From a virus, in the IMG/VR virus record IMGVR_UViG_3300045988_139474, positions 88,908 to 152,907 of that record: a stretch of 64,000 nt of DNA; one strand, 5' to 3'. A program made the translations under genes and the position numbers. The notes below the pieces were generated by a model that was given only the letters and a program-made list of their open reading frames with translations, ran no database searches and had not been told where the DNA came from. Each line of letters begins with the position of its first letter. The stretch's first letter is position 1. Shown piece by piece: positions 5,224-61,482 of this stretch.

Positions 5224-5731
5224 ATCGAATGTGCCTCGCCACTGGAATATTGTCTAAGCCAAGCTCCTAGACAAAATTGTAAGTCATTGATTCTGTTCAG
5301 AAGAAAGTTTCAGGCCTTTCGTCTTTCTTCTCGCTTGGGGTGTTCACAATACACAAAGAACGGTAGGATGTAAAAGCGCATTTTCTTTAAAATAATTTCG
5401 ACTTTTTCGATAACTCGTTGTTTTTACTAAGAAGAAAGTTTAAAATATTTTCGATTTTCTTTCCCTGCTGGGGATTAAGGTCAGGGATTGAGGGAAATTT
5501 CAAGCTTCAATCTTCAGGCCTCAAGCTTTCGGCTCGATTCCTCTTGTGATTGAGGGTTATACAGGCTCAAGCCTCGCTCAGGCAGAAGTTTCATGTTTCA
5601 ACAGGTTTGAGGAGGATTCATGACTGATTCCTTCTTATATTTCCACTCTTGCTTGACCACATAGCAGAGCCTTTCATGTTTCAAGTCTCATGTTTGATTG
5701 AGGTAGCAGGGTAATGAATGATTGTTTCATC

Positions 5732-5762
5732 TCTAGCCTGCTACACCACACAAGCAGGCAGA
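5732..5762 (+). repeat. CA-loop hairpin (H-box) copy
   Basis: Stem GCCTGCT/AGCAGGC, loop ACACCACACA, outer pairs TCT/AGA. Confidence 0.7.
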
Positions 5763-5894
5763 CGGTTTAAGCTAGGATTTCACTCAACATCAGGGTTGAG
5801 AATTGAAGATTTCAGCCTCATGGCTTGAGATTTAGGATTCATGATTGTTGAGGGATTGAGAGGGTTTATGATTCATGTTTCAACACTCAATAGT

Positions 5895-6046
5895 AGATTA
5901 TAAGATATATAATACCTGAGGTTGATATTGTATCACATCTATGACATTGAAATCGTATATTTCGTGACTAACTTCTTATTTTCGCAAGGGAATTTTTAGC
6001 CAAAATCCTGTATTTATGTACGGAATCCCAATAGTTACAAGATTCA
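5895..6046 (+). repeat. R-element copy 1
   Basis: TATAAT at 5908-5913; anchor TATCACATCTATGA at 5931-5944; V1 ACTAACTTCTTATTTTCGCAAGGG; V2 CAATAGTTACA. Confidence 0.9.
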
Positions 6047-6284
6047 GCATTCAGCTTCTGTATCCCTGTCAACAGATTTCACCAGTGTTGATTGATTTCG
6101 CCTTTTAGCTTTCTATCCTCTGCTTGACACTCACCCAGACGGTCGGATTTCAGTCAGTCATTACTCATGCTTCAGCAGGGTTGAGTAGGATTCATGATTG
6201 TTACCCCTTCTTCTGCTGACTCAGGCTACAGGCCGTCTAGTTTCATTGCTTCAGCAGTGTTGATAAAGACTGATTCTGTTCCAT

Positions 6285-6316
6285 CTCTAGCTTGCTACGC
6301 TCACACGCAAGCAGAG
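6285..6316 (+). repeat. CA-loop hairpin (H-box) copy
   Basis: CTCT-A-GCTTGC / loop TACGCTCACAC / GCAAGC-AGAG: 10 bp with a 1-nt bulge. Confidence 0.75.
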
Positions 6317-6444
6317 GGTTTCTTATCTCATGTTTCAGCATCATGATTCTCAAATTTCACGATTTCATTCTCATGGCTGATTGAGGATTGAGAGTGAATG
6401 ACTGATTCCTGTTCAACAGCAGATATTAAGTCGGTATCGTTTTC

Positions 6445-6600
6445 TAATTTAATATATATATATATATAACCTGTAGTTTGTTATTGTATCACATCTATGA
6501 CATTGAAATCGTTTATTTCGTGGATAACTTCCTAATCCGCCAAAAGAATTTTTAGCCAAAATCCTGTATTTATGTTCCGATTCCTGTACCCGCCAAGACC
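6445..6600 (+). repeat. R-element copy 2
   Basis: Anchor at 6487-6500. The -10-like box is replaced by (AT)8 at 6452-6467. V1 GATAACTTCCTAATCCGCCAAAAG; V2 TGTACCCGCCAAG. Confidence 0.9.
6452..6467. repeat. (AT)8 dinucleotide microsatellite
   Basis: Read directly. It occupies the position where other copies have ATTAGTNATATAAT. Confidence 0.9.
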
Positions 6601-6826
6601 AGCATAAAAATATCGAAAAATCTTTCCCAATGTTGACTGCCTAAAGACGGTATCCCCTCTGTAAGCGCGGCAAGGCCAATTAACGTAATTTTTTGGTAAC
6701 ACCCTAATATCTATTGATGTATCGCCCTACACGATTTCGCAGAGCGTCGCTGCTAAGTCGTTGATTCTTCACGGGAATGATACAAATGGCCGTCAGTATC
6801 GGCACTATTTACAGGAAGAACTGAAA

Positions 6827-7276
6827 ATGACCAATCAGGTAATAAGTCTAAATTCCAGTTCATTGCCAGCTACCTTGTCTGATATCGACAAGCATTTTGA
6901 TATCGACCAGCTTCAGGTACACCGTATTGCAGCACAGCTGTTGTTGACTAAATTAGCCAACAGGGAAGCTGTACGGCTCGAAAAGCTCGTCAATTTCAGA
7001 GATGCTATTGAAGAGCAGCTATTTGATGAAGACCGCATCGACAAGTTGACTCAGGAAGAGTTGATTGCTTTGCACCAGTTGATATCAAGTAGTGAGAGTC
7101 AGGCATACGGCCAAATTCAGAAAGTTAGCAAAGATGTGAACCTCGAAGAAGTGAAAGTCCATATCAAGATTCTGTCACAGTCAATGAACGATTCCGATAA
7201 TCCAAACCTAGTGGACAACTCAGAAGCCGCAGCTGTAGCACAACGATTGCTGTCGCAAGTGGAAAGTAAGAAGTAG
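6827..7276 (+). CDS. hypothetical protein (small terminase candidate by position only)
   Basis: In-frame ATG at 6827 with RBS AGGAAG. The ORF-track start at 6761 is TTG without an RBS. 149 aa, helical, acidic. Lies upstream of TerL. Confidence 0.45.
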   Translation: MTNQVISLNSSSLPATLSDIDKHFDIDQLQVHRIAAQLLLTKLANREAVRLEKLVNFRDAIEEQLFDEDRIDKLTQEELIALHQLISSSESQAYGQIQKVSKDVNLEEVKVHIKILSQSMNDSDNPNLVDNSEAAAVAQRLLSQVESKK

Positions 7277-7292
7277 TCCAGAAAGAAACATC

Positions 7293-7523
7293 ATGACCCC
7301 GATTAAAAGACAAGCGTGTAATTTGACTGTTGGAAAAGCCGTAACCCTGCCTTCAGGCCGCAGGGCTATCGTGCTTGAGATTCAGACAGAAAGCATTTCA
7401 TTCTGCTATGCTGATGAGGCTGAGCTGTTCTCATTTGAGCTATCCCGAAACAAGTGCATTGAACTGTTCGGCAATACCCCCGAATATCGTGACTACTGGA
7501 CGCCAGCCAATCAAAGAATCTAG
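7293..7523 (+). CDS. hypothetical protein
   Basis: 76-aa ORF packed between neighbours on the operon strand. Confidence 0.5.
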   Translation: MTPIKRQACNLTVGKAVTLPSGRRAIVLEIQTESISFCYADEAELFSFELSRNKCIELFGNTPEYRDYWTPANQRI

Positions 7524-7540
7524 GCCGAAAGGACTGACTC

Positions 7541-9343
7541 ATGAGCCAATCAAGCGAGATTGTAGCATTAGATAACAAGGTGCTATTTGAGATTGCCAAG
7601 AAAGCAGGCTTTAAAGAGGAAGTCCCAACGATTGAGCAATTTATTGATGACCCTTACTATCTTGGCAAAGTGTTGGGTGACGGATTGTATCCTATTTGGC
7701 GAGAAGCAGCCAAGAAGCTGTACCCCAACCCTTACCATTCACCATATGATGAAGTCATTCTATCGGGTGCTATCGGTTTGGGTAAATCGACTATGGCACT
7801 GCTCATCACTTTCTATGACCTTTGCCGAGTCATGTGCTTGGAAGACCCGCATAAGCATTATGACCTAATTTCCTCAACAGTCATCACATTCCCAATGATG
7901 AATGCAACCAAGTCCCTTGCGTCGAAGGTGCTCTGGTCGCAATTCGTGGATTGGGTAGAAGCAAGCCCATTCTTCAAACACCGTGTTGATACCCGCAAGG
8001 GTGCTAAGACCTTCTTCAAAGGCAACATTGATGTTTCGACAGGCTCACGCGGCAGTGACTACTTAGGTCAAGCAACCATCGGTGCAATCTTTTCGGAGAT
8101 TAACGACATGACGGTTGTAGCTGGCCAAGCAGAGGACAACCTTGACACAATCTCCACTCGTAGGGATTCCCGATTTGGCGGTAAAGGTAAGGAAATTCTA
8201 GGACACATCATCCTTGATTCCTCTAACAAGGGCAATCGCTCATTCATTGATGCGCGCCTTGAGGAAAAGGAAAAGAAAGGCTCAACAGGACATATCGTCT
8301 TCAGCTTCTCACACTGGGAAGCAAAATGGCACTTGGGAGGATACTCAGGCAAATTCTTCCAAGTGTACGCAGGCGATGAGTTTATTGACCCTTTCATCAT
8401 TGATGATTCCAATTCCGACATGCTTCCAAACTTGAAGCCTAATCGTATTGTCGATGTCCCTGTTGAGCATAGGGAACAGTTTGAATTCAACATCATCAAA
8501 TCATTACGTGACTTGGCTGGTGTTTCAACTTTCGGCACGGCTTCCTTTATCTCATCCAATGAGGTTCTCAATCGCACGTTCATTCGGCCTAATCCTGTTA
8601 CCAAGGATTTGATAGTGCTAGACTTCTTCAACGACCAGTCATTGCGGGATTACATCGACATCGGGTTGTTGAAGGCGTTATGCGACAAGCCCCGATTCAT
8701 CCATATTGACTTAGGCTTGACTACTGACTCAACAGGTATTGCTTGCTCATACATTGACAGGTACGAAGAGGTGAAAGCTTATGACCCTGTCAAGGGCACT
8801 CAGACGGTAGTTGTTGAGCCAGTATTCGTCAATGAATGGCTGATGGAGATACGGAGCATACCAGGACAGGAAGTCCCAATCCACAAAATCAAGAAATTCA
8901 TTCTTGATGCAAGGGCTGAGGGCTATCCAATTGCTTGCGTTTCAACAGACGGCTTCCAATCAACCAACCTGCGGCAGGATTTACTGTATGCTGGTTTTGA
9001 AGTGAAGCTGATTTCAGTTGACCGAACCAAAGACCCTTACTATCATTTGCGCTCAGCGATTCTCGAAGGCCATGCAACAGCTGTCGCCTCAGAAAAGCTC
9101 AAGCGTGAAATCAGGGAATTGGAAGAGCATGATGACAAGTTTGACCACCCACCACCTCCAGCAGGCTCGAAAGACTTGTCTGACGCATTATGCGGTTCAA
9201 TCTGGTCAGCCAAAGAGAACATGCAGCTAGCAGACAAGACGAAAGTGACCAAGCAACAGGCTGATACATTGCTCAAAGTGTTGGAAAAATCCGCTCCGAA
9301 AGAACAGGCATTCAAAGCTAAATTGATGGGCGGTTACAATTAG
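7541..9343 (+). CDS. terL: terminase large subunit
   Basis: 600 aa. Walker A GAIGLGKST. The C-terminal half has RNaseH-like nuclease acidic motifs (VSTDGFQS, DLSDALCGSIW). Confidence 0.8.
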   Translation: MSQSSEIVALDNKVLFEIAKKAGFKEEVPTIEQFIDDPYYLGKVLGDGLYPIWREAAKKLYPNPYHSPYDEVILSGAIGLGKSTMALLITFYDLCRVMCLEDPHKHYDLISSTVITFPMMNATKSLASKVLWSQFVDWVEASPFFKHRVDTRKGAKTFFKGNIDVSTGSRGSDYLGQATIGAIFSEINDMTVVAGQAEDNLDTISTRRDSRFGGKGKEILGHIILDSSNKGNRSFIDARLEEKEKKGSTGHIVFSFSHWEAKWHLGGYSGKFFQVYAGDEFIDPFIIDDSNSDMLPNLKPNRIVDVPVEHREQFEFNIIKSLRDLAGVSTFGTASFISSNEVLNRTFIRPNPVTKDLIVLDFFNDQSLRDYIDIGLLKALCDKPRFIHIDLGLTTDSTGIACSYIDRYEEVKAYDPVKGTQTVVVEPVFVNEWLMEIRSIPGQEVPIHKIKKFILDARAEGYPIACVSTDGFQSTNLRQDLLYAGFEVKLISVDRTKDPYYHLRSAILEGHATAVASEKLKREIRELEEHDDKFDHPPPPAGSKDLSDALCGSIWSAKENMQLADKTKVTKQQADTLLKVLEKSAPKEQAFKAKLMGGYN

Positions 9344-9644
9344 CTCAAAATCAGCTACCTCACCAATTTCAGGTCAGGTATTGCTTGTTGAGAACAGGGC
9401 GTTATCAGCTGGAATTTACCATCGCTGGGGGATATACCAGCGAGTTATTTCAGTCATCAGAATCCTTGTTTTTGATTGATTTTAAGATTTCAGTCTCATG
9501 GCTGTTAAATCCCTTGTTTTCAGTCTTCAGGCCTCCTGATTTCTTGATTCTTGCTTTCGGGATTCTATCCTGACTGCTTGATTCTTCTCTTCGGGATTCC
9601 GTGAGGGCTGTTTTCAAGGATTCCAGTTTCATGGATTGTTAGTT

Positions 9645-9803
9645 TTCTTTATTTAATATATAGTATAACTTGTGTTGTGTATATTGTATCACATCTATGA
9701 CATTGGAATTGGATATTTCGTGGATAAGTTATTATTTTCGCAAGGGAATTTTTAGCCAAAATCTTGGACTTATGTTCGAGATTCTGTCTAGGCCAGGATT
9801 CAG
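9645..9803 (+). repeat. R-element copy 3
   Basis: Anchor at 9687-9700; TATAAC box about 9664-9669; V1 GATAAGTTATTATTTTCGCAAGGG; V2 TGTCTAGGCCAGG. Confidence 0.9.
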
Positions 9804-9879
9804 ATTTCAACTCTTGTATCGCAGCCTCAAGTTTCATCAGTCAATGATTGATTTCAGGCTTCCAGCAGTCTGTTTTCAA

Positions 9880-9913
9880 CTCTAGCTTGCTCACACTCAC
9901 AACGCAAGCAGAC
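9880..9913 (+). repeat. CA-loop hairpin (H-box) copy
   Basis: CTCT-A-GCTTGC / loop TCACACTCACAAC / GCAAGC-AGAC. Confidence 0.75.
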
Positions 9914-10044
9914 GGTTTCTTGTTTTGATTTCAGGCTTCAGGCCGTCTGATTTCAAGGATTCCATGCTCATGGCTGATCGATAAGGATGAATGACTGCTC
10001 TCAAGTCTCAGGATTGATAGAAATGAAAGCAGGGTTGTTCTTTT

Positions 10045-10206
10045 TCGTCTATTAGTAATACTCTTGTGTGGTGTGTATATTGTGTATCACATCTATGAGT
10101 TTGGAATTGGCTATTTCGCGGATAAGCTTCTGATTCTCCAGCACTATTTTTCGCCAAAATCCTGTCTTTATGTTCGGAATCCTGTTCCCTACAAGATTCA
10201 TCTTCC
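10045..10206 (+). repeat. R-element copy 4
   Basis: Anchor at 10085-10098. Terminal hairpin 10177-10199 (GAATCCTGT / TCCCT / ACAAGATTC). Ends 32 nt before the portal start codon. Confidence 0.9.
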
Positions 10207-10237
10207 ATTAACCTGACATCTGCAAGGAATAAGCCCT

Positions 10238-32884: not shown

Positions 32885-33547
32885 ATGCTACCAATTGATG
32901 AATGGTTCAGCGAAACTAAGCCGAATGAAAGCTATCAGCGCGGTATCGTGTTAGACAATAACGACCCTGAGATGAAGAAACGGTTGAAAGTGCGAATCCC
33001 TGGCTTCATGGAAGGCGACAAAGAGACCCTGCCATGGTGCGTCCCTATCGGTGACGCTTTCTTAGGGGATTCTGCTCAATCAGCTGAAGTGGCTGTTCCT
33101 GCTATCGGCTCAGAAGTGGTAGTGTCCCTGCCCACTACTGATGCCTCATTCCCTTTCTATATCGGCTCATGGCAATCCAAGCCTGTTCCTGCTGAGTTTC
33201 AGACCAATTATCCGAACAGACATGGCAGGAAGGATAACTCAGGCACTTATTGGTATAATGACCAGACGACAGGGGAATTCAAATTCAAACATTCCTCAGG
33301 CTTTGAGTTCACGATTAAGGCGAATGGCGATTTCACCCTCAAGACGGCTGGAAACGGTATCGTCAAGGCTGGTCAGCTGTTAGACTTGATTGCTGCTACT
33401 ATGGTTTCGGCTCAAACGCCAATGCTGAAAGCCTCGCAAGAGATTATGGATGAAGTGAGAACCATGTCTGCTGACCGTGAGATTTACAACACTCACATTC
33501 ATCAAGGTTACCATGGCCCAACCAGTCAGCCTTTGCAGCCTAAGTAA
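32885..33547 (+). CDS. baseplate spike protein (gpV / gp5 OB-fold-like)
   Basis: 220 aa. GIVLDNNDPEMKKRLKVRIPGFMEGDKETLPWCVPIG is the typical gpV/VgrG N-terminal motif. Confidence 0.7.
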   Translation: MLPIDEWFSETKPNESYQRGIVLDNNDPEMKKRLKVRIPGFMEGDKETLPWCVPIGDAFLGDSAQSAEVAVPAIGSEVVVSLPTTDASFPFYIGSWQSKPVPAEFQTNYPNRHGRKDNSGTYWYNDQTTGEFKFKHSSGFEFTIKANGDFTLKTAGNGIVKAGQLLDLIAATMVSAQTPMLKASQEIMDEVRTMSADREIYNTHIHQGYHGPTSQPLQPK

Positions 33548-33552
33548 TTGCT

Positions 33553-33706
33553 TTCTTGGCCTAGTCAGAATCTCGAACATAAAGACAGGATTTTGGCTAA
33601 AAATTCTTCTGCTGAAACAATTGCTTACCAACGAAATAGCCAATTCCAATGTCATAGATGTGATACAATATCAACACTACAGATATTATATTACTAATAA
33701 ATCTTA
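33553..33706 (-). repeat. R-element copy 6 (inverted, minimal copy)
   Basis: Anchor reads on the minus strand (plus-strand TCATAGATGTGATA at 33652-33665). The 49-nt block 33589-33637 is the exact reverse complement of 60321-60369 in copy 8. Confidence 0.9.
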
Positions 33707-40860: not shown

Positions 40861-40900
40861 CAGCAACCTGATTTCATCAGATTTCAGGTTGCTGTTCTTT
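40861..40900 (+). terminator. rho-independent terminator
   Basis: CAGCAACCTGA / 12-nt loop / TCAGGTTGCTG (11-bp stem), followed by TTCTTTC. Confidence 0.7.
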
Positions 40901-40924
40901 CGGCTCGCTTCCTCTTTGATTCGA

Positions 40925-40957
40925 TTCTTGCTTGCTACACTCACACCGCAAGCAGAA
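40925..40957 (+). repeat. CA-loop hairpin (H-box) copy
   Basis: TTCT-T-GCTTGC / loop TACACTCACACC / GCAAGC-AGAA. Confidence 0.75.
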
Positions 40958-47200: not shown

Positions 47201-50200
47201 TCTGAAAGAAACAGGCCGATTCTTCATTAAAGCAACAGCCAATCCGAATGCGCCGATTAACAACTGGCTGTACGTTACAGTTGATAAAGGCACTGACAGC
47301 AGGATTACCCAGAAGATTCAAGCTGATAATGACCCTAACATCCGCTATTACCGATATTTCAACGGTAGCAGTTGGACTGATTGGGTCAAAGAAGCTAACC
47401 TGTCTGATGTTAATGCTGTTGACGGCAAGGTGACTGAGACTAACAAGCGGATAGACAATCTGCGTGTGAGCGGTCGAAACCTTTTGGCTGCTACTCGTAA
47501 GCTGACTGCATTCTACAAGGGTGTGAATGTTTGGCATTACGCTAAACACCCTGACGAAAGGCAAGAAAGACTTGAGCCGATTTCGTCAGGTGACGGCTAT
47601 GAATACCTTGACGCGGATAAGCAACCTGCTAATACCTCAACTAATTACGTTCAATTGATTAGTAGAGTAGCAGGCCGTTGGGTCAATTGGCATCAGTACA
47701 GTAGAGAGGGTAGCAGGGCAGCTAGAGACGATAGCTCACCAACATTAGCTAAAGTCCAATCAGGTCGTTGGTACACTTTGAGTTGCGAAGTTAGAAAGAC
47801 AGCAACCAGTCCTAATACCCGATTGCAATTGAACTTGAGGGAATACTACACGACTTCAGGATTCAAAGACAATGGTGGTTGGGTTGACGTAAATTCTACC
47901 GAATGGCAACAGGTTCATGTAACTGTATTTGTTGAATACGGTCGAGGAATCTTGGGTCATGACTACTGGCTCGCCTACTTTGAGCTGTATGATGTCGGTG
48001 AAGTCCATATCCGCAAGCCGATGTTGGTTGAAGCTAATATCCCAGCCGATTGGTCAGAAGCTCCTGAGGATTTGGAACGCACTGAGATTGAATTCTCTGC
48101 TGACTTGCAAGAGTTCAAATCAACACTAGCAGATAACCGCAAATCTTTAGCTAGGCAAATGACACAATTGGAGGCAGGTTTAGGTATTTCTGCCAACCTG
48201 ATAGCCGATTCCGAGTTTGTCGAGGGCTTATCTGAGCAGGCATTTACTGAAGACAGTAATACAACTGGCTATGTGCGAGGTATAGTAGCTGTTGATAATG
48301 GTAGGTCGCCCAAAAACTTCCTGCCTAATAAGGCTGTCCGCGATATCAATGTTGGTTATGTAGGCCGTCTGAACGAAGCTAATGACTCAAACTGCTATTT
48401 CGGTACTTATAACGTCCCTATAATCCCAGGCATTTACCAATACAGCATTTATGTCCGCAATGACGCTAAAGTAACTGCTGATGTGTATGCTAACTTCCTT
48501 GACGAAAACCGCAGTCAACTAGCTCAGCCTGAAAGTAAGTATTGGAAGGACGATTTTGGCCCAAGAACGATTCAGCCTGCACCAGCCAAGCCTGCTGGTC
48601 AACAGTTGACTTTAGGTGACTTCACTAGGGTTGTATTTAACATTGATACAACTCATATGACTAATCTGCACTACACCAGGATTGTCGTCAGACTGAACTC
48701 AGTACCAGCCAATAAGGTCGGAGAGAATGTTGTATTGTTCTGCCGTCCTCAAATCGTCAAGATTAAGAAGCTGGAACTGGCGGATGTAGTTGAGTACACA
48801 CCTGGCCCAAGCAGGACTTCAGCCAAAGCCTTATTTACTGAGGAACGCCAAGCAAGGACAACTGAAACAGATAGCCTTGTGAAGCAGATTACCAAAGGCT
48901 CAGCCAAATTCCCGAATGGTACAGGCGACATAAATCAGGTCAGCGTGGTTATGAATCAAATCATGACTGCAACAGCCAATAAGGTCACTGCTGATTTGAC
49001 TAAGAAGTATCAGTTAGATATTGGTGGAGACAACTTGGTTGAAAACTCTGACTTCAAGGCTTACGAAAACATACAGTCATACCCTAACTCAACCTCAAGA
49101 AACAAGACCGCTACAATCTATCAATACATGTACCCAAACGCAGGCACTATGACGCCACTCATCATTCCAGATGTTGGTTTGAACGGCTCAAATGCTCTGC
49201 GAGTATCTTGGACTGAATTCCCTGAATTCCAGAACAAGGGGCTACAGATAGTATTTAGCAAAAAGACTTGGGCAAGAGGTCAGTTTTACATCTTAGCGGT
49301 CGCTGCAAGGCTTCCTGCAGGTGTAACTACTAGAGGTTGTCGAGTAAGGTTGGACGTTTCTAATGCGCCTTTCTGGCAAGATGTTGAATACCTGAATCAA
49401 CCTGAACTGACTAACGATTGGCAGTGGACTATCTGTAAGGCTCGCAAGACTCAAGAAGATAACCTCAACCAATTGTTTATCTCAGTCAACGGTGCTAATA
49501 GCCCGTCATTAAGAAGCGTTGAATTCTGCCTCCCTTATGCTAGTCAAGGTTCTACTTGGGGCGGTTACAAGCCACCTACAATCTCAGCTGTCTTAACAGA
49601 GACGAAAGAGATTGCACTTGATGCTCAAGGCAAGGTCAATGCTAAAATCGGTATGACGGTTGATGCAGGCGGTCGAGTTATCGGTTGGGAAGCTCAGAAT
49701 AGAAACGGCTCAACTGAGTTTAATGTGTTGGCTGATAAATTCCGAGTATTGAACAGCTTGAATCAAGGTGGTTCTCCTTTCACTATTGAAAACGGCGAAG
49801 TTGTATTCAAGGGTAAAGTGCGGTTTTCAAACGTTCAAGACCCTCCAGCCATTCCTAAAGTGCCGATAACTATCACGGCTGTAGGTGTGTCCAATCACCT
49901 GGATGTAGCCAAGCGAGTAGCACTGCTGACTACAGATACCAGAGACTTGCACCGCTCAAGTAATGGTCGAGGTGTTTGGTTGTCCGTAATCAATAACCAG
50001 ACAGGCACATTGATATCCAATGTCCTGTACGATACCTACACGGCTGCTGGCTGTACCGCATTTGCTAATGCAGTCAATAGCTTGAATCGAGGTAGCAATC
50101 TGGTAATTGTGAGGTCACAAGATGCGTCAATGGCTGATAACCAAGACTTCATAAGGGCTTTGAATAGCTTGGCAGCTGGCTTTGGTAATAACGTCAACAA

Positions 50201-51740
50201 GGCTTTGAAAAGCGAGGTTAGAACTAGCTTCAGCCTGATTAGCCAAGTCATTGGTACTGACCGCTGTACGTCAGAAGCTATTGATGGTCGTAAGAATCCT
50301 GACCAAGTTGCGGCTGTATGCTCAGGCTTGTTGAAAGACGGCGTTTACTCGTTCATTTCAGCACCTACAAACAACAGTCAAACCAGCTTAGTTGATATTG
50401 CGGAAGCTGAGGCCAATAAAAAGGCTAATGCAGCCAAAAAGGCTATTGAGGATACCTGGAGTCCTACAATCAATGAAGCTTTGACTAAAGCCAAAAAGGG
50501 TGTTGAGGAAGCTGATAAAGCCAATAAAGCAATACCTGAGAAGCTGAAAGAGGCTAAGGACTATGCTGATGATCAAAGAATAGAGGCAATCAAGAAAGCT
50601 GGTGAAGCAGCAGGCGAAAAGATTAAGCAAGCCAAAACTGATGTTAAAAATGACTTAGCACCTGTAATCAATCAAGCCAAGACTGACGCGATTACAGAAG
50701 CCCGACAATCTGTAGTATTCACAACTGCTCAAGACCTAAACAGTCTGGCTAATTCGGGTAGTTATGTAATCAAAGCAGCCAATAATCCGAATGCCCCGAT
50801 AACTAACTGGTTATTTGTTACAGTTGAGGGTGACGGTCGTGACCGCATTTTACAGACCGTGACTCGAGACAACGACAGTACAGTCCGTTACACTCGCAGA
50901 AAGGTTGGCGGTACATGGTCAGATTGGGCTAAAGAGGTCAGTGCTGATGACGTTCAACAGTCAATTTCAGCTTTGAAGATACCGAATGTGTTGTATGCTC
51001 AAGGGGCTTACAATAACAGCTATGCTCAGATGAAAGTATCAACTCCTTCTGGAATCCGCAATCTACCGATTGCAGATAACATAGGTATTGCGGTACAGAT
51101 TCTGAACATTTCAACGCTGGGTGTTGAGTTTGCTAAAGTCTATCCTGCTAATGCTACCAGCTATGCTCAGTTGGCTGCTGATTTAAGTAAGACCGCCTAC
51201 AACGGCAAGATAGTCATGATTGTATCTAGGGCTAATGTCGGTAGAGTGGACGATACCAACCTGAGGTCAGCTTTGCGTAGAGCAGGTTCAACAGACCTGA
51301 TTTACAACACGCTGAACAAGCGAGGCAACAATACATTTGCTTTGATTGGTAAGATTGGTTCAGAAGGCTCAGCCCAAGAATCTATCATGGCTGTTGGAGG
51401 TTCAGGTGGTGTCTTTGGCGATTTCGCTCAGGTTTCTGCAGTTTGGAACAACGGCGATTTAATGCCAGGCAGTCAGACACTGATTGACGGCGGTAGGATT
51501 ACAACCAATTCTATCACTGCTAATCAAATTAGTGTTGGTAGCTTGTCCGCAATATCAGCTAACTTAGGTCATGTTACTGCAGGCTCAATTAACATTGGTG
51601 GTAAGTTTAGAGTTGATAGCAATGGTGAAGTAACGATTAGTTCAGGCGGTTCTACTGGCTTGAAGATTACTAACCAACGCATTGACGTGTATGATGAAAA
51701 TGCTAGATTACGCGTCCGATTAGGCAAACTGGTTGATTAA
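41277..51740 (+). CDS. giant (3487 aa) modular tail fibre / adhesin
   Basis: ATG at 41277 with RBS AGGAG. Long coiled coils alternate with jelly-roll-like modules, each starting GGRNL and ending (K/E)xExGxxxTDWTPAPED (44328-44720, 45579-46083, 46356-46769, 47469-48077). Two pyocin-knob-like domains, two ILEI/FAM3-like domains, and a C-terminal fibre-tip-like repeat ITANQISVGSLSA. Confidence 0.75.
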   Translation: MVKPCIQEQSVLRYSDTASHDKAGMVPLATRWGEVPEDQYAVTAASLLMLENTVSKVEALVADAVDLAAQAGEKAAKAAVKATNTLTDGSSTYSQLNGETGMNITGLTYIPGLSRIELRWALPTYERAAETVIYQATTEAFENAVVIKKVEYPISGAFIDETKARYYWVQLVDKQDPSRRGQVFGPILADPYGNLDKLVETLRGKITATELDAELVQGLYKNIQEATDRTINERLASIRERLNNLDNLVDSRVQNSLQGLNQVTDALEQEIRRLGSNYSKVVENTEKAQGLLETWTSKTEEALAGVQKNTLALTDANTALSQTRETLLAKVGANEAAINKESEARTTQYESIADDIKQLRTKTEANEAAIVEEGRLRSDQFGSQAETLKGLQATSSTQAGRIRELSQTVADNERSSATKFENLKSGLMGNHHYNYNFTAGKDSWEASQGVLEAKTSNNPSDPSNTLLNLKTNVTTLVYSTTKTAINLENVYNAVASLRNIGANPVKVRVGLMTFDHRGEAQTHSNVDSRYYWVSEKTLAPNSGWASLGGEAKGATKQWPINSDLKLAAIPLGAKQGVPVVEIVGERGSEVDIGSIDLLDISATAAVGSEISTLKETTTTALDTQAKEFKKLSSKFGENISEIEKQQKTFSSAQKAQAEQINNMTAKVGANEAGLQRLDEAVTSDRSSTALALDNLKAGFNSTMVNHVKNPSMSKDSTGWTANPTAKFKRVPSTSLLPKGKTEADVPYYTLFKSEGYVGKFWGTDLLIDCDIPKLVSPTDLVHFSVKVANPATTNLTQIKVRINGAQTILLGEVAKGKFEIVSGSVPLPANTTSLQLQISTQNSAITEENAIIIAFPQCRTNAAPIESDAKLEHLRLAVANADQALAREVNNLQVNYKAAAAAIKEEKETRASETEALSLKYQTMESELNGSKAKIQKLETTVTTETESVAKRVREMGTEFNGKISTVTEVAQRGVDNAAEALQKANDNLGLAKRYADDKSLKAITDAEKAVRDKLKLGGRNLIRKSNPDTNDSQYLHAFAITEAPAFGDDVTVTLWGDLGEGRTDFAVYNSRGFGELAKLKKISDGVYQAQFKWADNTYTGPEDKLSNTTLNVYAYPSSSTSAFSINKVKFERGTVPTDWTPAPEDVEDKVDKVKVEIERQVKEAKDLAVSSNAKIKEHETSINNAEKALNQKAVELTGQFNQALTEKVEVLNNAVAKKASGEEVKALLGKVTAVEREVIESKSKINQFSETLDNAQQSSTQIVQDAESRFKKVVEKSVETINRDIGTVRQAAADAASKADQNLQAAQNYADGKKNEALDAAKTYADGQKTAAIQAASADATKKANAAKKAAEDALNPAIQAAQRKADEGVSNAQQAVQAAERNLQAAKEYADGKTAEAKKQAIKDAEEQLKQAKEFLQGKIAEAKTLYDNLEFGGRNLLRKTKGLTDTKFWKFYKDARQTVAEQPRTDDVLTIKTGSAFWASYRQTSVDNPLIALEANKTYTVSFEAKSSNTLDRSIRLFVREYFGDSNDNRFSYYFTPLVADDWVKHSYTFTVDELKANHKAWHVIWELTAPDTQLEIRNMKVERGNKPTDWTPAPEDVEGQIADVKQKAENIGNDMERALEQVKGQLETRIQEAEKKATDAESKVNNYTKTKDTEVSAMAESVRGLEGKFVEEAEKVRATVTTAINDIQIGGRNLAKDSYNPNKDKHGYLKAYRITKAPEYGDKVTVTVWGELGDTRNGQIGVYNTFGYGELFKLTKIADGVWRGQGFWNKHTSPIAGGQERQNETLNLYAYPNDNTDRNLVNNLFTHVKFELGNKATDWTPAPEDLESKIEDITTWKISAQSALEQVQRTVNSAQGSAATLNDALSARFNEAKTQTRREVREELNPEIAKAKKAGVDAAGAVKTELTPKITDAKDQADKGVAEAKKANDAIPQKLKEAKDYADTKKTEAITAAVTEARDWKAVNARTDLNTLKETGRFFIKATANPNAPINNWLYVTVDKGTDSRITQKIQADNDPNIRYYRYFNGSSWTDWVKEANLSDVNAVDGKVTETNKRIDNLRVSGRNLLAATRKLTAFYKGVNVWHYAKHPDERQERLEPISSGDGYEYLDADKQPANTSTNYVQLISRVAGRWVNWHQYSREGSRAARDDSSPTLAKVQSGRWYTLSCEVRKTATSPNTRLQLNLREYYTTSGFKDNGGWVDVNSTEWQQVHVTVFVEYGRGILGHDYWLAYFELYDVGEVHIRKPMLVEANIPADWSEAPEDLERTEIEFSADLQEFKSTLADNRKSLARQMTQLEAGLGISANLIADSEFVEGLSEQAFTEDSNTTGYVRGIVAVDNGRSPKNFLPNKAVRDINVGYVGRLNEANDSNCYFGTYNVPIIPGIYQYSIYVRNDAKVTADVYANFLDENRSQLAQPESKYWKDDFGPRTIQPAPAKPAGQQLTLGDFTRVVFNIDTTHMTNLHYTRIVVRLNSVPANKVGENVVLFCRPQIVKIKKLELADVVEYTPGPSRTSAKALFTEERQARTTETDSLVKQITKGSAKFPNGTGDINQVSVVMNQIMTATANKVTADLTKKYQLDIGGDNLVENSDFKAYENIQSYPNSTSRNKTATIYQYMYPNAGTMTPLIIPDVGLNGSNALRVSWTEFPEFQNKGLQIVFSKKTWARGQFYILAVAARLPAGVTTRGCRVRLDVSNAPFWQDVEYLNQPELTNDWQWTICKARKTQEDNLNQLFISVNGANSPSLRSVEFCLPYASQGSTWGGYKPPTISAVLTETKEIALDAQGKVNAKIGMTVDAGGRVIGWEAQNRNGSTEFNVLADKFRVLNSLNQGGSPFTIENGEVVFKGKVRFSNVQDPPAIPKVPITITAVGVSNHLDVAKRVALLTTDTRDLHRSSNGRGVWLSVINNQTGTLISNVLYDTYTAAGCTAFANAVNSLNRGSNLVIVRSQDASMADNQDFIRALNSLAAGFGNNVNKALKSEVRTSFSLISQVIGTDRCTSEAIDGRKNPDQVAAVCSGLLKDGVYSFISAPTNNSQTSLVDIAEAEANKKANAAKKAIEDTWSPTINEALTKAKKGVEEADKANKAIPEKLKEAKDYADDQRIEAIKKAGEAAGEKIKQAKTDVKNDLAPVINQAKTDAITEARQSVVFTTAQDLNSLANSGSYVIKAANNPNAPITNWLFVTVEGDGRDRILQTVTRDNDSTVRYTRRKVGGTWSDWAKEVSADDVQQSISALKIPNVLYAQGAYNNSYAQMKVSTPSGIRNLPIADNIGIAVQILNISTLGVEFAKVYPANATSYAQLAADLSKTAYNGKIVMIVSRANVGRVDDTNLRSALRRAGSTDLIYNTLNKRGNNTFALIGKIGSEGSAQESIMAVGGSGGVFGDFAQVSAVWNNGDLMPGSQTLIDGGRITTNSITANQISVGSLSAISANLGHVTAGSINIGGKFRVDSNGEVTISSGGSTGLKITNQRIDVYDENARLRVRLGKLVD
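48362..48373 (+). repeat. DNA uptake sequence, AG-DUS 12-mer (inside giant gene)
   Basis: Exact match. Confidence 0.9.
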
Positions 51741-55521: not shown

Positions 55522-55575
55522 GACGGACTCAACCTAGTGAACCGCATTCAATCTTATTTTACAAGGAAAGACAAC

Positions 55576-56277: not shown

Positions 56278-56326
56278 CAGCTTGAGGCGATTGCAATTCA
56301 AACCATTAGAATAAAAGGAAAATCCA

Positions 56327-57635: not shown

Positions 57636-57637
57636 CC

Positions 57638-57970: not shown

Positions 57971-57972
57971 CC

Positions 57973-58736: not shown

Positions 58737-58737
58737 G

Positions 58738-58980: not shown

Positions 58981-59807
58981 TAAATCGTGAGATTTTGGAA
59001 GTATTTGATAATTGCGAAGGCACTAAGAATCCGCTCAAGACTCAATCAGTACTGCTAGAAAGCAAGACGGCTAAGGCTAAAGAGTCATTGGCTGAAGTGA
59101 CTGCGCTGTTATTCCCTGCTGAAAGTAGCGATTCGCCCAGACGGCCTCAAGCCTCTGCTCAGGCTTCCTCTTCCGATTCTTCTGCTAACTTGTCGCCGAA
59201 ACAGAAGCTCATCAATGAATTCTTGAAAGGTACAGGCCTTGCTAAACAGCATTTAAGCCGTATCAAGCAGGCTACCAACAAAATCAGCCATGCTACAGGC
59301 TTGATTAAGAATTATTCGATTGAGAATCTGGCGGACATTCCAACCAAGTTTTCCGTAGTCGGTCAATACATGGCTGATAGGGGGCATGATTGTAATATCG
59401 TCAATTCAGTCTTTGGGGTAATGATGGGCGGAGGCAAAGCCTTGCTAGAATCCTTAGGGATTGAGACGCAGTTCATTACCGACTTATCAAGCAAGCTCAA
59501 CGGCTTCGTTGAGTTAGCTAAGAGGGGTGCGGAATACGTCAATGGTGCTATTGAAAGGTTCAATGCACTGGTTGGGGATGTTGAGTCTTTCATTAACAAT
59601 CTTGAAAGCAGGATAACCAATCTTGAGCAGCTGATTAAAAGTACGATTCAGGCTGAAATAGACAAGCTGAAAGAATTGATGATACGCAATCTCAATGCTA
59701 TGTGGGCTAGGAATTTGCCTGGTTGGTTGAAGAATGATTGTTTCAAGTCAGTCTTGTCTAATGCTTTGTCAGATAAAGTCGGTCGGTTGACTGAGGAACT
59801 GCTATAA
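58977..59807 (+). CDS. hypothetical protein (last gene of the rightward block)
   Basis: 276 aa, helical, with an S-rich linker. Confidence 0.55.
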   Translation: MINREILEVFDNCEGTKNPLKTQSVLLESKTAKAKESLAEVTALLFPAESSDSPRRPQASAQASSSDSSANLSPKQKLINEFLKGTGLAKQHLSRIKQATNKISHATGLIKNYSIENLADIPTKFSVVGQYMADRGHDCNIVNSVFGVMMGGGKALLESLGIETQFITDLSSKLNGFVELAKRGAEYVNGAIERFNALVGDVESFINNLESRITNLEQLIKSTIQAEIDKLKELMIRNLNAMWARNLPGWLKNDCFKSVLSNALSDKVGRLTEELL

Positions 59808-59850
59808 CAACAATTCAACATAATGCTAGGCATACAGCTGTCTAGCCTCT

Positions 59851-59889
59851 GCCCCTTTAGCCGTGATTGGTTGAAGGGGCTTTTTTATT
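59851..59889 (+). terminator. rho-independent terminator
   Basis: GCCCCTT / 16-nt loop / AAGGGGC, followed by TTTTTTATT. Confidence 0.8.
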
Positions 59890-60062
59890 GCGACTAAAAT
59901 TCTGGCGATTTTAGCTGGGTGCAGAGGGTTGAATGGTAAATGATTTGGTCAGCGAGTAGAAATTGGCTACCGCGTTGAAATAGACAGCAAACTTTCGATT
60001 CTAGCGTGATTGGGGAGGGTTCAGCAGTCAAGTATCGGATTTTCACTCCTGTTGGGTCAGGG

Positions 60063-60074
60063 TTCAGACGGCCT
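60063..60074 (-). repeat. DNA uptake sequence, AG-DUS 12-mer (inside repeat module)
   Basis: Exact match on the minus strand. Confidence 0.9.
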
Positions 60075-60140
60075 AAGCTAAGATTTCATACTTCAGCAGG
60101 GTTGAGTAAGATTTCAAGTCATCAGGCTTGTTTTGATACT

Positions 60141-60166
60141 TGACTGGCCCATCACACAGCCAGTCA
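60141..60166 (+). repeat. CA-loop hairpin (H-box) copy
   Basis: Stem TGACTGGC/GCCAGTCA (a completely different stem sequence), loop CCATCACACA. Confidence 0.7.
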
Positions 60167-60254
60167 GACGGTTGATTGACTTCAGCAGTATCATGTTTTT
60201 CACTCTCATGGCTGATTGATGATTGAGAGATTACAGTTAGTGTTTGTTTATCAA

Positions 60255-60412
60255 TTTATTAGTAATATAATATTTGTGTGTGTGTGATATTGTATCACAT
60301 CTATGACATTGAAATCGTTTATTTCGTTGGTAAGCAATTGTTTCAGCAGAAGAATTTTTAGCCAAAATCTTGGACTTATGTACGGAATCTTGTAGGGAAC
60401 AGGGTTCATCTT
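60255..60412 (+). repeat. R-element copy 8
   Basis: TATAAT at 60266-60271; (TG)6 at 60275-60286; anchor at 60293-60306. Terminal hairpin 60385-60407 (GAATCTTGT / AGGGA / ACAGGGTTC). Confidence 0.9.
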
Positions 60413-60563
60413 TCAAGTCTCAACAGTCAGTAGCAAGTTTCATCACTCAATGTTGGGTGATGTCTCCTCGATTCCTGTTGTTGCTTGAGCAGGGGTTCAG
60501 ACGGTCGGATTTCTAGGTTGCTGCTACAGCAGGGTTGAGTAAGGATGAATGAGTGTTTTCATC

Positions 60564-60595
60564 TCTTGCCTGCTACATTCACACCAGCAGGCAGA
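60564..60595 (+). repeat. CA-loop hairpin (H-box) copy
   Basis: Stem TGCCTGCT/AGCAGGCA, loop ACATTCACACC. Confidence 0.75.
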
Positions 60596-60663
60596 CGGAG
60601 GAATCCTTGAAGCTGAGATTTCACTCTCATGGCTGTTTGAGGGAGGAATCAGGGCTGTTAGAA

Positions 60664-60828
60664 TTTATTATAGTTATTAATAATCTGTGATTATATATTG
60701 TATCACATCTATGACATTGAAATCGTATATTTCGTGGATAAGTTTCTAATAAATCAGGGGAATTTTTAGACAAAATCTTGGACTTATGTACGGAATCCTG
60801 TACCCGCCAAGCTTCATCTCTCAATCGT
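60664..60828 (+). repeat. R-element copy 9
   Basis: Anchor at 60701-60714; V1 GATAAGTTTCTAATAAATCAGGGG; V2 TGTACCCGCCAAG. Confidence 0.9.
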
Positions 60829-60982
60829 CAACAATCAGCCTCAAGTTTCACTAGTCAGCAATTGAATTTGCTTTTCAGCTTTCGGTCGGTGCATGAATGC
60901 TGCTAATCAGTATTGATATTAATGATTTTCAGCACTCAATCGTCATTCGGTCGGAGGGTGTCCCAACACGGTTGAGATTCAA

Positions 60983-61013
60983 TTCTTGCCTGCCACTCAT
61001 CAGTCAGGCAGAA
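60983..61013 (+). repeat. CA-loop hairpin (H-box) copy
   Basis: TTCT-T-GCCTG / loop CCACTCATCAGT / CAGGC-AGAA. Confidence 0.65.
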
Positions 61014-61182
61014 CAGTCTCATGCTTCAGCAAGCTTGAGGGAGGATTCACCCTTCAGGGCTGATTGCTAAGATTTCATGCTTCAGCAGTCTCAAATTCTT
61101 GTTTTCCAGTCTCATGGCTGTTCTCAAGTCTCATGGCTGTTGGGGATTGAGAGTGAGGGACTGATTCATGACTGTTAGAAGT

Positions 61183-61340
61183 TTATTAGTTATATAATAC
61201 CTGTTGTTTGTTATTGTATCACATCTATGACATTGAAATCGTATATTTCGTGACTAACTCGTTATAAAATCAGGGAAATTTTTAGCCAAAATCCTGGACT
61301 TATGTTCGGAATCCCAATAGTTACAGGATTCATTCCTCAA
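61183..61340 (+). repeat. R-element copy 10
   Basis: TATAAT at about 61193-61198; anchor at 61217-61230; V1 ACTAACTCGTTATAAAATCAGGGA; V2 CAATAGTTACA. Confidence 0.9.
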
Positions 61341-61448
61341 CCATTGCTGTTCAGTCTCAAGTTTCACCAGTCAGCAATTGGTTTCATGATTCCGTCTCAA
61401 TCACACCCTCAGGCCGTCTGATTCCATTCTCATGCATGACTGTCCCTC

Positions 61449-61482
61449 TTCTTGCTTGCTCACACTCACACCGCAAGCAGAA
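61449..61482 (+). repeat. CA-loop hairpin (H-box) copy
   Basis: TTCT-T-GCTTGC / loop TCACACTCACACC / GCAAGC-AGAA. Confidence 0.75.

What the first reader, a model, noticed from the sequence alone, without database searches (positions are those of the whole stretch)
5646..61482. CA-loop hairpin family (H-box) with compensatory stem changes
Each full module contains a hairpin of the form YTCT-N-[6-8 bp stem]-[loop YACAYTCACAC(C)]-[stem]-AGAR. Good copies are at 5732-5762, 6285-6316, 9880-9913, 40925-40957, 60141-60166, 60564-60595, 60983-61013 and 61449-61482. Weaker or degenerate versions lie at 5646-5669 and about 6117-6142. The stem sequence differs between copies but pairing is kept: GCTTGC/GCAAGC, GCCTGCT/AGCAGGC, TGACTGGC/GCCAGTCA and GCCTG/CAGGC. 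The CA-rich loop, the single bulged nucleotide and the outer 4-bp clamp are conserved. That is direct evidence of selection for the structure, as an RNA stem-loop or a DNA cruciform, with a sequence-specific loop. Several copies are followed by CAGACGG, so the 3' flank resembles a partial DUS complement.
Basis: seen in the sequence. Interest (0 to 1): 0.65.

Follow-up and report, generated by a model that had tools for sequence, protein, structure and literature searches.

The report
Conserved hairpin in phage promoter cassettes
A short stem-loop with a C/A-rich loop recurs in the non-coding repeat cassettes of an uncultivated ~154-kb phage, probably of oral Neisseria; its pairing has been kept by matched mutations on both sides of the stem, so the fold is selected, but its job is not yet known.

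Summary
All eight "good" hairpins sit at the stated coordinates. A covariance model built from them finds only these eight plus the degenerate copy at 5637-5682 in the 64-kb window. All nine are on the + strand and all are intergenic. Related metagenomic phage contigs add copies, for 77 hits and 43 distinct sequences. Of these, 94% of cells are paired and 4 of 10 pairs show double (compensatory) changes. At one orthologous site three strains read U-A, U·G and C-G.

The window comes from an uncultivated myovirus of about 154 kb from human oral samples. Its DNA is enriched in the DNA uptake sequence (DUS), which points to a Neisseriaceae host.

Each hairpin lies 130-300 nt upstream of, and always co-oriented with, a 115-160-nt promoter-like module that precedes the structural genes. 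The same module also forms gene-less tandem arrays.

The hairpin is not a canonical terminator, an N4-type promoter, a nut/boxB site, a CRISPR repeat or any Rfam family. The variable arm spacing argues against a duplex operator.

The best reading (confidence about 0.4) is a sense-strand RNA hairpin recognised through its loop, which processes or stops transcripts between successive late promoters. A single-stranded-DNA role cannot be excluded. The family is lineage-specific and undescribed.

The parts
5732..5762 (+). H-box copy: TCT-A-GCCTGCT-[acaccacaca]-AGCAGGC-AGA
   Evidence: 61.9 bits; -14.2 kcal/mol
6286..6315 (+). H-box copy: TCT-A-GCTTGC-[tacgctcacac]-GCAAGC-AGA
   Evidence: 61.2 bits; -13.2
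9881..9912 (+). H-box copy: TCT-A-GCTTGC-[tcacactcacaac]-GCAAGC-AGA
   Evidence: 70.3 bits; -9.5
40926..40956 (+). H-box copy: TCT-T-GCTTGC-[tacactcacacc]-GCAAGC-AGA. It lies 24 nt after the terminator-like hairpin at 40861-40905.
   Evidence: (69.1 bits)
60138..60168 (+). H-box copy: ACT-T-GACTGGC-[ccatcacaca]-GCCAGTC-AGA
   Evidence: 55.9 bits; -13.2
60564..60595 (+). H-box copy: TCT-T-GCCTGCT-[acattcacacc]-AGCAGGC-AGA
   Evidence: (63.1 bits)
60984..61012 (+). H-box copy: TCT-T-GCCTG-[ccactcatcagt]-CAGGC-AGA
   Evidence: 52.5 bits; -10.2
61450..61481 (+). H-box copy: TCT-T-GCTTGC-[tcacactcacacc]-GCAAGC-AGA. Its orthologues show the series U-A, U·G, C-G.
   Evidence: (64 bits)
5637..5682 (+). 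Decayed H-box whose inner stem is deleted. The copy is intact in relatives (L013, L046, L053: GCTTGAC/GTCAAGC).
   Evidence: (24.5 bits)
6117..6142 (+). H-box remnant with 5' arm, loop and CAGACGG but no 3' arm
   Evidence: not detected
5928..6042 (+). Promoter-like module (TTGTATCACATCTATGA...), copy 1 of 11. The other copies start at 6484, 9684, 10082, 25741, 41075, 60290, 60698, 61214 and 61690 on the + strand, and at 33668 on the minus strand.
59990..61810 (+). Gene-less tandem array of four cassettes (H-box ... CTCATGGCTG ... AT-rich stretch ... module)
5460..6620 (+). Array of two cassettes between the replication genes (minus strand) and the terminase region
9440..10237 (+). Two cassettes between terminase and portal. 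One is missing in strain L051, lost by recombination between modules.

Best explanation
The H-box is a structured element that works as a folded single strand of the sense (+) strand, most probably RNA. It belongs to a lineage-specific non-coding cassette. The cassette order is: T-rich repeats, H-box, the CTCATGGCTG box, an AT-rich TATAAT-like stretch, then a 115-160-nt promoter-like module.

The cassettes sit in front of the structural (late) operons and also form gene-less tandem arrays.

Inferred mechanism: transcripts coming from the upstream gene or the upstream cassette fold the hairpin. A phage or host protein then reads the unpaired C/A-rich loop (core UCAC/UCAU), together with the bulge and the invariant UCU/AGA base. 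That protein cuts, stops or otherwise marks the RNA there. This insulates the next late promoter and defines the transcript ends.

What is shown:
- the fold exists and is under selection;
- it is strand-specific and co-oriented with the module;
- it is not a canonical terminator.

What is inferred:
- that the folded molecule is RNA;
- that a protein binds the loop;
- that the outcome is processing, termination or insulation.
For: Selection on pairing:
- Compensatory changes occur at 4 of 10 pairs across 43 distinct copies.
- RNAalifold gives the same helix on an unbiased alignment.
- Orthologous sites switch between strains.

Sense-strand folding:
- The only non-Watson-Crick cells in the core stem are G·T on the + strand: L025:5119, and L035:8968 among the weaker hits. 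On the other strand these would be A·C.
- The orthologous series U-A, U·G, C-G is the classical route through a wobble pair.

Orientation and position:
- Every copy is co-oriented with a module 130-300 nt downstream. This also holds in L035, where arrays lie on both strands.
- There are no copies in the 55 kb of coding DNA or in 20 kb of flanking early/replication genes.

Against a duplex operator:
- The conserved arms GCYTG/CARGC are 12-15 bp apart, and the spacing varies.
- Only the 5' side carries a bulge.

Room for an insulator role:
- Between tandem modules the scans find no stem-plus-T-run terminator. The 3' ends of genes do have canonical ones, at 59851-59880, 9422-9443 and 40861-40905.
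- The H-box is among the top four local folds in every interval that holds one.

Stability:
- The RNA fold is stable, at -9.5 to -14.2 kcal/mol.
Against: - There are no transcription data, so neither the start sites nor the existence of read-through RNA is known.
- At 40929 the H-box follows a canonical terminator. At 60141 it follows a weak terminator-like hairpin at 60115-60130 (the canonical terminator lies at 59851-59880). RNA would therefore reach these two copies only by read-through.
- The wobble evidence rests on two cells.
- Half of the stem and the whole clamp never vary, so sequence-specific recognition of DNA is not excluded.
- The hairpin also folds as single-stranded DNA.
- Three modules (9684, 25741, 33668) work without it.
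- A cassette that carries it is absent in one strain, so no single copy is essential.
- No candidate binding protein was identified.
Confidence: 0.4

Rival explanations
1. The hairpin forms in single-stranded DNA, when the + strand is exposed during replication, recombination, packaging or promoter melting. There it would be a loading or recognition site for something such as a primase, a nickase, a recombinase or a polymerase factor. It would be comparable in principle to N4 hairpin promoters or to single-strand initiation signals.
For: - Strict strand specificity and compensatory stems fit single-stranded DNA as well as RNA.
- The element folds as DNA at -5.6 to -8.2 kcal/mol.
- G·T is tolerated in DNA hairpins.
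- The H-box always lies upstream of the promoter-like module, including at the first cassette of each array. At 40929 it follows a canonical terminator and at 60141 a weak terminator-like hairpin. An upstream DNA element would look like this.
- About half of the loops carry ATCACA, the same hexamer as in the invariant module box TTGTATCACATC.
- The left array adjoins the replication genes.
Against: - Extrusion from duplex DNA is energetically unlikely for stems of 5-8 bp with loops of 8-13 nt.
- The orientation follows the local module, even in divergent arrays. Nothing ties it to a replication direction.
- The distance to the module varies from 130 to 300 nt.
- There is no N4-type virion polymerase: the giant ORF is a tail fibre.
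- Copies are dispensable.
Confidence: 0.2
2. The hairpin is part of the machinery or the history of a selfish, recombining repeat, such as a PeSL-like, REP-like or MITE-like cassette. On this view it persists because cassettes spread and homogenise by recombination, and it adds little regulatory function of its own.
For: - Cassette number differs between strains through recombination between modules.
- Arrays occur on both strands in L035.
- The sister clade, with 55% portal identity, has compact intergenic regions. Its terminase-portal gap is 13 nt, and it has no module and no H-box. The cassettes are therefore a recent lineage-specific expansion.
- Decayed copies exist at 5637 and 6117.
Against: - Gene conversion alone does not explain repeated independent double substitutions that restore pairing at orthologous sites, nor the U·G intermediate.
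- The loop composition is maintained while its length changes.
- No transposase, REP-associated tyrosine transposase (RAYT) or terminal inverted repeats were seen. Only about 28 of roughly 60 window ORFs were scanned.
Confidence: 0.15
3. It is an ordinary intrinsic (factor-independent) transcription terminator that ends each cassette transcript.
For: - It is a stable hairpin lying between successive promoter-like modules.
- Some copies are followed, after 3 nt, by a T-rich stretch (CGGTTTCTTGTTTT).
Against: - The loops are 8-13 nt and conserved in sequence.
- No T-run abuts the stem, and several copies are followed by AGAACAGTCTCATG or AGACGGAGGAATCC.
- The terminator scan does not pick up any copy, yet it does find the canonical terminators at gene ends.
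Confidence: 0.05
4. It is a duplex-DNA operator: an inverted repeat bound by a dimeric regulator of the downstream promoter.
For: - The arms are partly invariant (G-N-Y-T-G ... C-A-R-N-C, plus TCT/AGA).
- The position is upstream of a promoter-like module.
Against: - The two half-sites change together, which a dimer site does not require.
- The spacing between arms varies by 3 bp or more.
- The bulge makes the arms asymmetric.
- The loop is strongly strand-asymmetric and conserved.
- The distance to the module varies from 130 to 300 bp.
Confidence: 0.05

Closest known systems
PeSL composite terminator-promoter cassettes of T4-like phages (PMC2839356, PMC4122927)
   Same: - Repeated intergenic cassettes that combine a stem-loop with a promoter.
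- Present many times per genome.
- Associated with insertions and deletions that arise by recombination between copies.
   Different: - PeSL stem-loops are short G/C terminator-type hairpins placed directly next to sigma-70-type early promoters, and they flank small accessory ORFs.
- The H-box has a long conserved C/A loop and no T-run.
- It lies 130-300 nt from a non-sigma-70-looking 115-nt module.
- It serves structural genes or no gene at all.
lambda-type nut sites (boxA + boxB RNA hairpin bound by N); from general knowledge
   Same: An RNA hairpin whose stem may vary while the loop is read by a protein. It acts on transcription that passes through it.
   Different: - boxB has a 5-bp stem and a 5-nt GNRA-like loop.
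- It occurs once per early operon, downstream of the promoter.
- The H-box has an 8-13-nt loop, occurs at least 8 times per 64 kb, lies upstream of promoter-like modules, and has no recognisable boxA.
N4 virion-RNA-polymerase hairpin promoters; from general knowledge
   Same: A strand-specific DNA hairpin with sequence-specific loop and flanks, used as a recognition signal.
   Different: - N4 hairpins have a 5-7-bp stem and a 3-nt loop.
- There are three copies, at the early end of the genome, and they need the giant virion polymerase.
- Here the giant ORF is a fibre, and the element is tied to late genes.
REP/BIME elements and IS200/IS605-type subterminal hairpins; from general knowledge
   Same: Short imperfect palindromes dispersed in intergenic DNA. 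They are strand-specific and are recognised as folded single strands.
   Different: - No GTAG-type guide tetranucleotide and no RAYT or TnpA gene was seen.
- The family is confined to one phage lineage.
- It is always coupled to one orientation of a promoter-like module.
T7-type RNase III processing hairpins between genes; from general knowledge
   Same: Conserved intergenic RNA stem-loops that separate transcription units in a phage late or early region.
   Different: RNase III sites are roughly 20-bp irregular duplexes. The H-box has 9-11 pairs and a large single-stranded loop.

Membership tests
Intrinsic (Rho-independent) terminator | G+C-rich stem with a short loop (3-8 nt) | tested here: not met
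   Loops are 8-13 nt. No copy is reported by the terminator scan.
Intrinsic (Rho-independent) terminator | A T/U run directly after the stem | tested here: not met
   The 3' flanks are AGA+CGG..., AGA+ACA... or AGA+G... At best, T-rich sequence starts 3 nt after the clamp.
N4-type hairpin promoter | 5-7-bp stem with a 3-nt loop | tested here: not met
   Loops are 8-13 nt.
N4-type hairpin promoter | A giant virion RNA polymerase is encoded | tested here: not met
   The 3487-aa ORF matches tail-fibre and adhesin families, CBM_4_9 and ILEI. It has no polymerase match in the PDB or PHROGs.
N4-type hairpin promoter | Located in front of early genes | tested here: not met
   All copies flank or interrupt the structural gene block. 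There are none in 20 kb of replication and early-type genes.
lambda nut (boxA/boxB) | 5-bp stem and a pentaloop of GNRA-like type | tested here: not met
lambda nut (boxA/boxB) | An N-type antiterminator protein and a boxA | not tested
   Most of the genome outside the window was not available.
PeSL (promoter-early stem-loop) | Stem-loop immediately adjacent to a sigma-70-type promoter | tested here: not met
   The distance from H-box to module is 130-300 nt. The module has no convincing -35/-10 pair.
PeSL (promoter-early stem-loop) | Copies mediate insertions and deletions by recombination | tested here: met
   Strain L051 lacks one cassette, with a hybrid module at the junction.
Rfam families | Match to any curated covariance model | tested here: not met
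   No hit at gathering score in the window. At E below 5 in 59800-62050, the only hit is a chance snoRNA match.
CRISPR repeat / solitary repeat unit | Similarity to the host CRISPR repeat | tested here: not met
   Local alignment to the N. meningitidis type II-C repeat (sequence recalled from memory) scores within the shuffled range.
DNA uptake sequence (DUS) | A 10-mer GCCGTCTGAA or a dialect with an intact core | tested here: not met
   The H-box tail has at most CAGACGG (7 of 10), and only in 4 of 8 window copies. True DUS copies occur elsewhere in the window.
REP/RAYT or IS200/IS605 hairpins | An associated HUH-family (Y1) transposase and a conserved guide tetranucleotide | not tested
   About 28 of the roughly 60 window ORFs were scanned against Pfam or PHROGs, and none gave such a hit. 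The rest of the genome was not available.

The most novel reading that the evidence does not exclude
The gene-less tandem cassettes are transcribed late into abundant non-coding RNAs. The H-box loop (AUCACA/CUCACA) repeats the invariant box of the late promoter module. On this reading the H-box presents a single-stranded copy of that box, or of the UCA motif that recurs at 7-nt spacing through the arrays, to the phage's late transcription factor or to an oligomeric RNA-binding protein. That would make these arrays a new class of phage decoy or sponge RNA, 6S-like or CsrB-like in logic, that tunes late transcription or titrates a host factor.
Probability: 0.07. Interest if true: 0.85.

Novelty: new variant of a known kind. 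Interest (0 to 1): 0.55.

Why it matters
Virulent-type large phages of Neisseriaceae are essentially unstudied. This lineage is known only from metagenome assemblies.

It carries a non-coding system that has expanded within the lineage. The system has two parts: a promoter-like module, and a hairpin whose structure is selected. Both flank the structural genes and also form tandem units without genes.

If the hairpin is an RNA signal read by a protein, it would define how late transcription units are separated in a phage group whose relatives encode their own RNA polymerase subunits. It would also supply a compact, orthogonal RNA-protein pair.

If instead it works as single-stranded DNA, it would be a second example, after N4, of hairpin DNA used as a regulatory signal in a tailed phage.

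Tried and rejected
- **N4-like phage with hairpin promoters.** The 3525-aa ORF suggested this. It was rejected because the ORF is a fibre or adhesin with internal repeats.
- **tRNA or known RNA family.** None was found.
- **Small ORFs across the H-box** (for example 5718-5828 and 60549-60680). Frames are not conserved, 1-2-nt indels occur between orthologues, and there is no RBS.
- **Kissing interaction** between the C/A loop and the G/T-rich tract just upstream of each module. One unit has a perfect 8-nt match (60141/60272), but most units have none (by eye).
- **Consensus RNA structure of the module leader.** RNAalifold predicts no pairs.
- **Long-range 7-nt periodicity.** Only a local lag-7 autocorrelation is present, with no coherent spectral peak.
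- **Similarity to the N. meningitidis CRISPR repeat.** None was found.
- **The same elements in cultured relatives.** IME392 has a different repeated motif and no H-box.
- **Host identification through isolate genomes.** The module is absent from GTDB representative genomes.
- **RNA polymerase subunits like those of IME392.** None was found in the roughly 100 kb of this lineage that could be fetched.
- **H-box outside the lineage.** A pattern scan of IMG/VR gives only chance look-alikes elsewhere.


Full report
**1. What the window is**

The window is mostly the structural gene block of a tailed phage with a contractile tail. PHROG matches include:
- tail sheath (22832-24670);
- tail tube, baseplate, prohead protease and major head protein;
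- a weak large-terminase match (7541-9343).

A DnaB-like helicase and a second helicase lie on the minus strand at the left edge.

The 3525-aa ORF is a fibre or adhesin with a carbohydrate-binding domain and internal repeats. It is not an N4-type virion polymerase. Its true start is probably 41277, which has a GGAG ribosome-binding site. The ATG at 41163 picked by the ORF finder is a conserved ATG inside a repeat.

No phage record in GenBank is similar at the DNA level. The closest cultured relatives are E. coli phages EP_H11 and IME392 (sheath 48% identical) and an Acinetobacter phage.

Exactly the same proteins occur on contigs of 146-154 kb from human oral metagenomes. In NCBI they are annotated only as metagenome-assembled "Caudoviricetes sp.".

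The 7-mer GCCGTCT occurs 47 times in 64 kb against about 8 expected, and there are 8 full GCCGTCTGAA copies. This points to a Neisseriaceae host.

**2. The observation**

A covariance model built from the eight finds only these plus the decayed copy at 5637-5682 in the whole window. All are on the + strand and all are intergenic.

Each copy folds as drawn, with energies of -9.5 to -14.2 kcal/mol as RNA. None to four of 200 shuffles fold as well. RNAalifold on the plain MAFFT alignment gives the same helix.

**3. Relatives and covariation**

I searched public collections for the invariant 17-25-mer of the neighbouring repeat. This returned related phage contigs from IMG/VR and from metagenomes. 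These are 88-98% identical to the window in genes and 70-90% identical in the non-coding parts.

The model finds 77 H-boxes in all, of which 43 are distinct. The counts on these are:
- 94% of cells are standard pairs.
- 4 of 10 pairs show changes on both sides, in 38 cells.
- No shuffle out of 500 reaches the observed covariation, and none is seen when the 3' partners are slid.

The stem types are:
- GCTTGC/GCAAGC
- GCCTGC/GCAGGC
- GCTTGGC/GCCAAGC
- GCTTGAC/GTCAAGC
- GCCTGGT/ACCAGGC
- GACTGGC/GCCAGTC
- GGCTGAC/GTCAGCC

Orthologous sites have switched between strains:
- Behind the 1290-aa gene, the window has TGCTTGC/GCAAGCA and L005 has TGCCTGC/GCAGGCA.
- At 61453, the window has U-A, L025 has U·G and L030 has C-G.

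Two caveats apply. The alignment used for counting was fitted to the model. Five pairs, including the whole TCT/AGA clamp, never vary, so they say nothing for or against pairing.

**4. Anatomy of the surroundings**

The H-box is one part of a larger repeat. A module of 115-160 nt has an invariant start, TTGTATCACATCTATGA. It occurs 11 times in the window, at these places:
- in front of the terminase region (6484);
- in front of the portal-like gene (10082);
- in front of the tail tube gene (25741);
- in front of the giant fibre gene (41075);
- once on the minus strand between baseplate genes (33668);
- as gene-less tandem units at 5928, 9684, 60290, 60698, 61214 and 61690.

An AT-rich TATAAT-like stretch and a G/T-rich tract precede the module. 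RNAalifold finds no consensus structure in it. It therefore looks like a DNA-level promoter or recognition box rather than an RNA fold.

The other gene cluster carries a different repeated motif upstream of its genes, so the module marks one gene class. The module contains CTATGA. In phiKZ the late promoter of the phage-encoded polymerase is TATG, with the start at G (PMC4666361). The relative IME392 encodes polymerase beta and beta' fragments. I could not find such genes in the DNA of this lineage that I could reach, so this remains a lead only.

Every H-box has a module 130-300 nt downstream in the same orientation. This also holds in contig L035, where arrays lie on both strands. The reverse does not hold: the last module before a gene has no H-box after it, and the first H-box of an array has no module before it. 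The unit is therefore H-box first, module last.

Between H-box and module lies a CTCATGGCTG box, present 9 times.

The non-coding stretches are strongly strand-asymmetric:
- T makes up 35% of the bases.
- TTTCA occurs 44 times against 1 for its complement.
- CTCATG occurs 17 times against 0.

TCA tends to recur at 7-nt spacing locally. There are no conserved ORFs.

**5. What it is not**

- **Canonical terminator.** The loops are 8-13 nt, no T-run abuts the stem, and the scan that finds the real terminators at gene ends finds no H-box.
- **N4-type promoter.** The loop size, the gene class and the lack of a virion polymerase all argue against it.
- **nut/boxB.**
- **Any Rfam family**.
- **The host CRISPR repeat**.
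- **A DUS.** The CAGACGG tail is in only 4 of 8 window copies and is replaced by AGAACA or AGAG in other subfamilies.

A duplex operator is unlikely for four reasons: both arms change together, the arm spacing varies by 3 bp or more, the bulge makes the arms unequal, and the loop is conserved on one strand only.

A cruciform is unlikely for such short stems and long loops. As single-stranded DNA the fold is worth only -5.6 to -8.2 kcal/mol.

**6. Evolution**

Cassette number changes by recombination between modules. Strain L051 has a 493-nt terminase-portal spacer with one hybrid module, where the window has 895 nt with two modules and an H-box.

A sister clade has a portal 55% identical to the window's and AT-rich DNA. 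It has compact spacers (terminase-portal gap 13 nt), no module and no H-box. IME392 has none either.

A pattern scan of IMG/VR finds true copies only in this lineage. The module is absent from GTDB genomes.

The system is thus a recent, lineage-specific expansion. No single copy is essential, yet pairing has been restored repeatedly.

**7. Mechanism**

The data show a folded single strand of the + sense with a loop that is kept unpaired and C/A-rich. I favour RNA (0.4) for four reasons:
- The element follows the direction of transcription units wherever they point.
- The only non-canonical cells in the core stem are G·U on this strand.
- The orthologous series passes through U·G.
- Tandem promoter-like modules otherwise have no terminator between them. 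A protein-read stop or processing signal at this position would therefore make sense.

The weak points are:
- There are no transcript data.
- The wobble sample is tiny.
- The first H-box of two arrays lies behind a terminator or a terminator-like hairpin.

A single-stranded-DNA role (0.2) fits the "always upstream of the module" rule, and it fits the ATCACA hexamer shared between loop and module box. A mainly selfish, recombination-driven repeat (0.15) fits the copy-number variation and the lineage restriction, but not the repeated compensation.

Upstream CAGCAG(G/T) motifs can pair with the 5' arm. For example, 5703-5747 folds at -19.6 kcal/mol. An alternative-pairing switch is therefore conceivable, but I did not test it for covariation.

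**8. Verdict**

This is a real, selected and previously undescribed hairpin family. It is tied to a novel promoter-like cassette in an uncultivated phage, probably of oral Neisseria. Its kind, a repeated regulatory stem-loop coupled to promoter cassettes, is known from PeSLs and other phage signals. Its form and context are new, and its function is open.

Noticed in passing
5928, 6484, 9684, 10082, 25741, 41075, 60290, 60698, 61214, 61690 (+); 33668 (-): A 115-160-nt module with the invariant start TTGTATCACATCTATGA and a second conserved block ATTTTTAGCCAAAATCCTG..TTATGT. An AT-rich TATAAT-like stretch precedes it. It has no consensus RNA fold and contains CTATGA. It is probably the late promoter or recognition box of this phage.
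   Followed up: partly
59990-61810 and 5460-6620: Tandem cassettes with promoter-like modules but no conserved ORFs. The right-hand array ends at a bidirectional terminator near 61975-62015, facing convergent minus-strand genes. These are possible late non-coding RNAs.
   Followed up: partly
whole window: The DUS core GCCGTCT occurs 47 times on both strands (about 8 expected), and there are 8 full GCCGTCTGAA copies. This implies a Neisseriaceae host. DUS enrichment in a large virulent-type phage is notable in itself.
   Followed up: partly
non-coding stretches 5460-5900, 6040-6450, 9440-10050, 59990-61660: Extreme strand asymmetry of short motifs: TTTCA 44 against 1, CTCATG 17 against 0, AGTCTC 12 against 0. 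TCA recurs at 7-nt spacing locally (lag-7 identity 0.35 against about 0.25). This suggests a binding array on a single strand or on RNA.
   Followed up: partly
5817, 6370, 9495, 9967, 40978, 60206, 60626, 61111, 61134, 61598 (approx.): A CTCATGGCTG box lies between the H-box and the module in nearly every cassette. Its function is unknown.
   Followed up: no
33540-33668 (-): One module copy points against the flanking + strand baseplate genes. It would drive an antisense transcript into 32885-33547.
   Followed up: no
41163 vs 41277: The ORF-finder start of the giant fibre gene is the conserved ATG inside the module. The likely true start is 41277, which has a GGAG ribosome-binding site.
   Followed up: yes
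5703-5747; 60529-60573: The upstream CAGCAGG/CAGCAGT motif can pair with the 5' arm of the H-box. This gives an alternative fold as stable as the H-box (-19.6 and -14.3 kcal/mol). It was not tested for covariation.
   Followed up: no
9906-9950: The CAGACGG tail of the H-box at 9885 pairs with a true DUS at 9940. Together they form an inverted DUS pair hairpin (-15.3 kcal/mol), the arrangement Neisseria uses at terminators.
   Followed up: no
44300-50600: The 3487-aa fibre gene contains several families of internal direct repeats of 28-103 nt (repeat families D4, D5, D9 and D10).
   Followed up: no
L054 1562, 6001, 9729 (window equivalent near 63770-63830, minus strand): A different repeated upstream motif (AAAATTAAGATTGG...TATAAACAAC) sits in the minus-strand gene cluster. 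It is probably the promoter of another temporal class.
   Followed up: no
outside the window (L051, L054): The flanking genome encodes an HU/TF1-like protein, an actin-like ALP protein, a YadA-type adhesin, a ligase, topoisomerase II and an SbcCD-like nuclease. In some relatives the major capsid protein is recorded as split products of 126 and 333 aa, which suggests an insertion in that gene.
   Followed up: no
L035 (contig ERZ773072.70): A relative carries cassette arrays on both strands, with genes in inverted order relative to the window. This suggests inversions by recombination between oppositely oriented modules.
   Followed up: no
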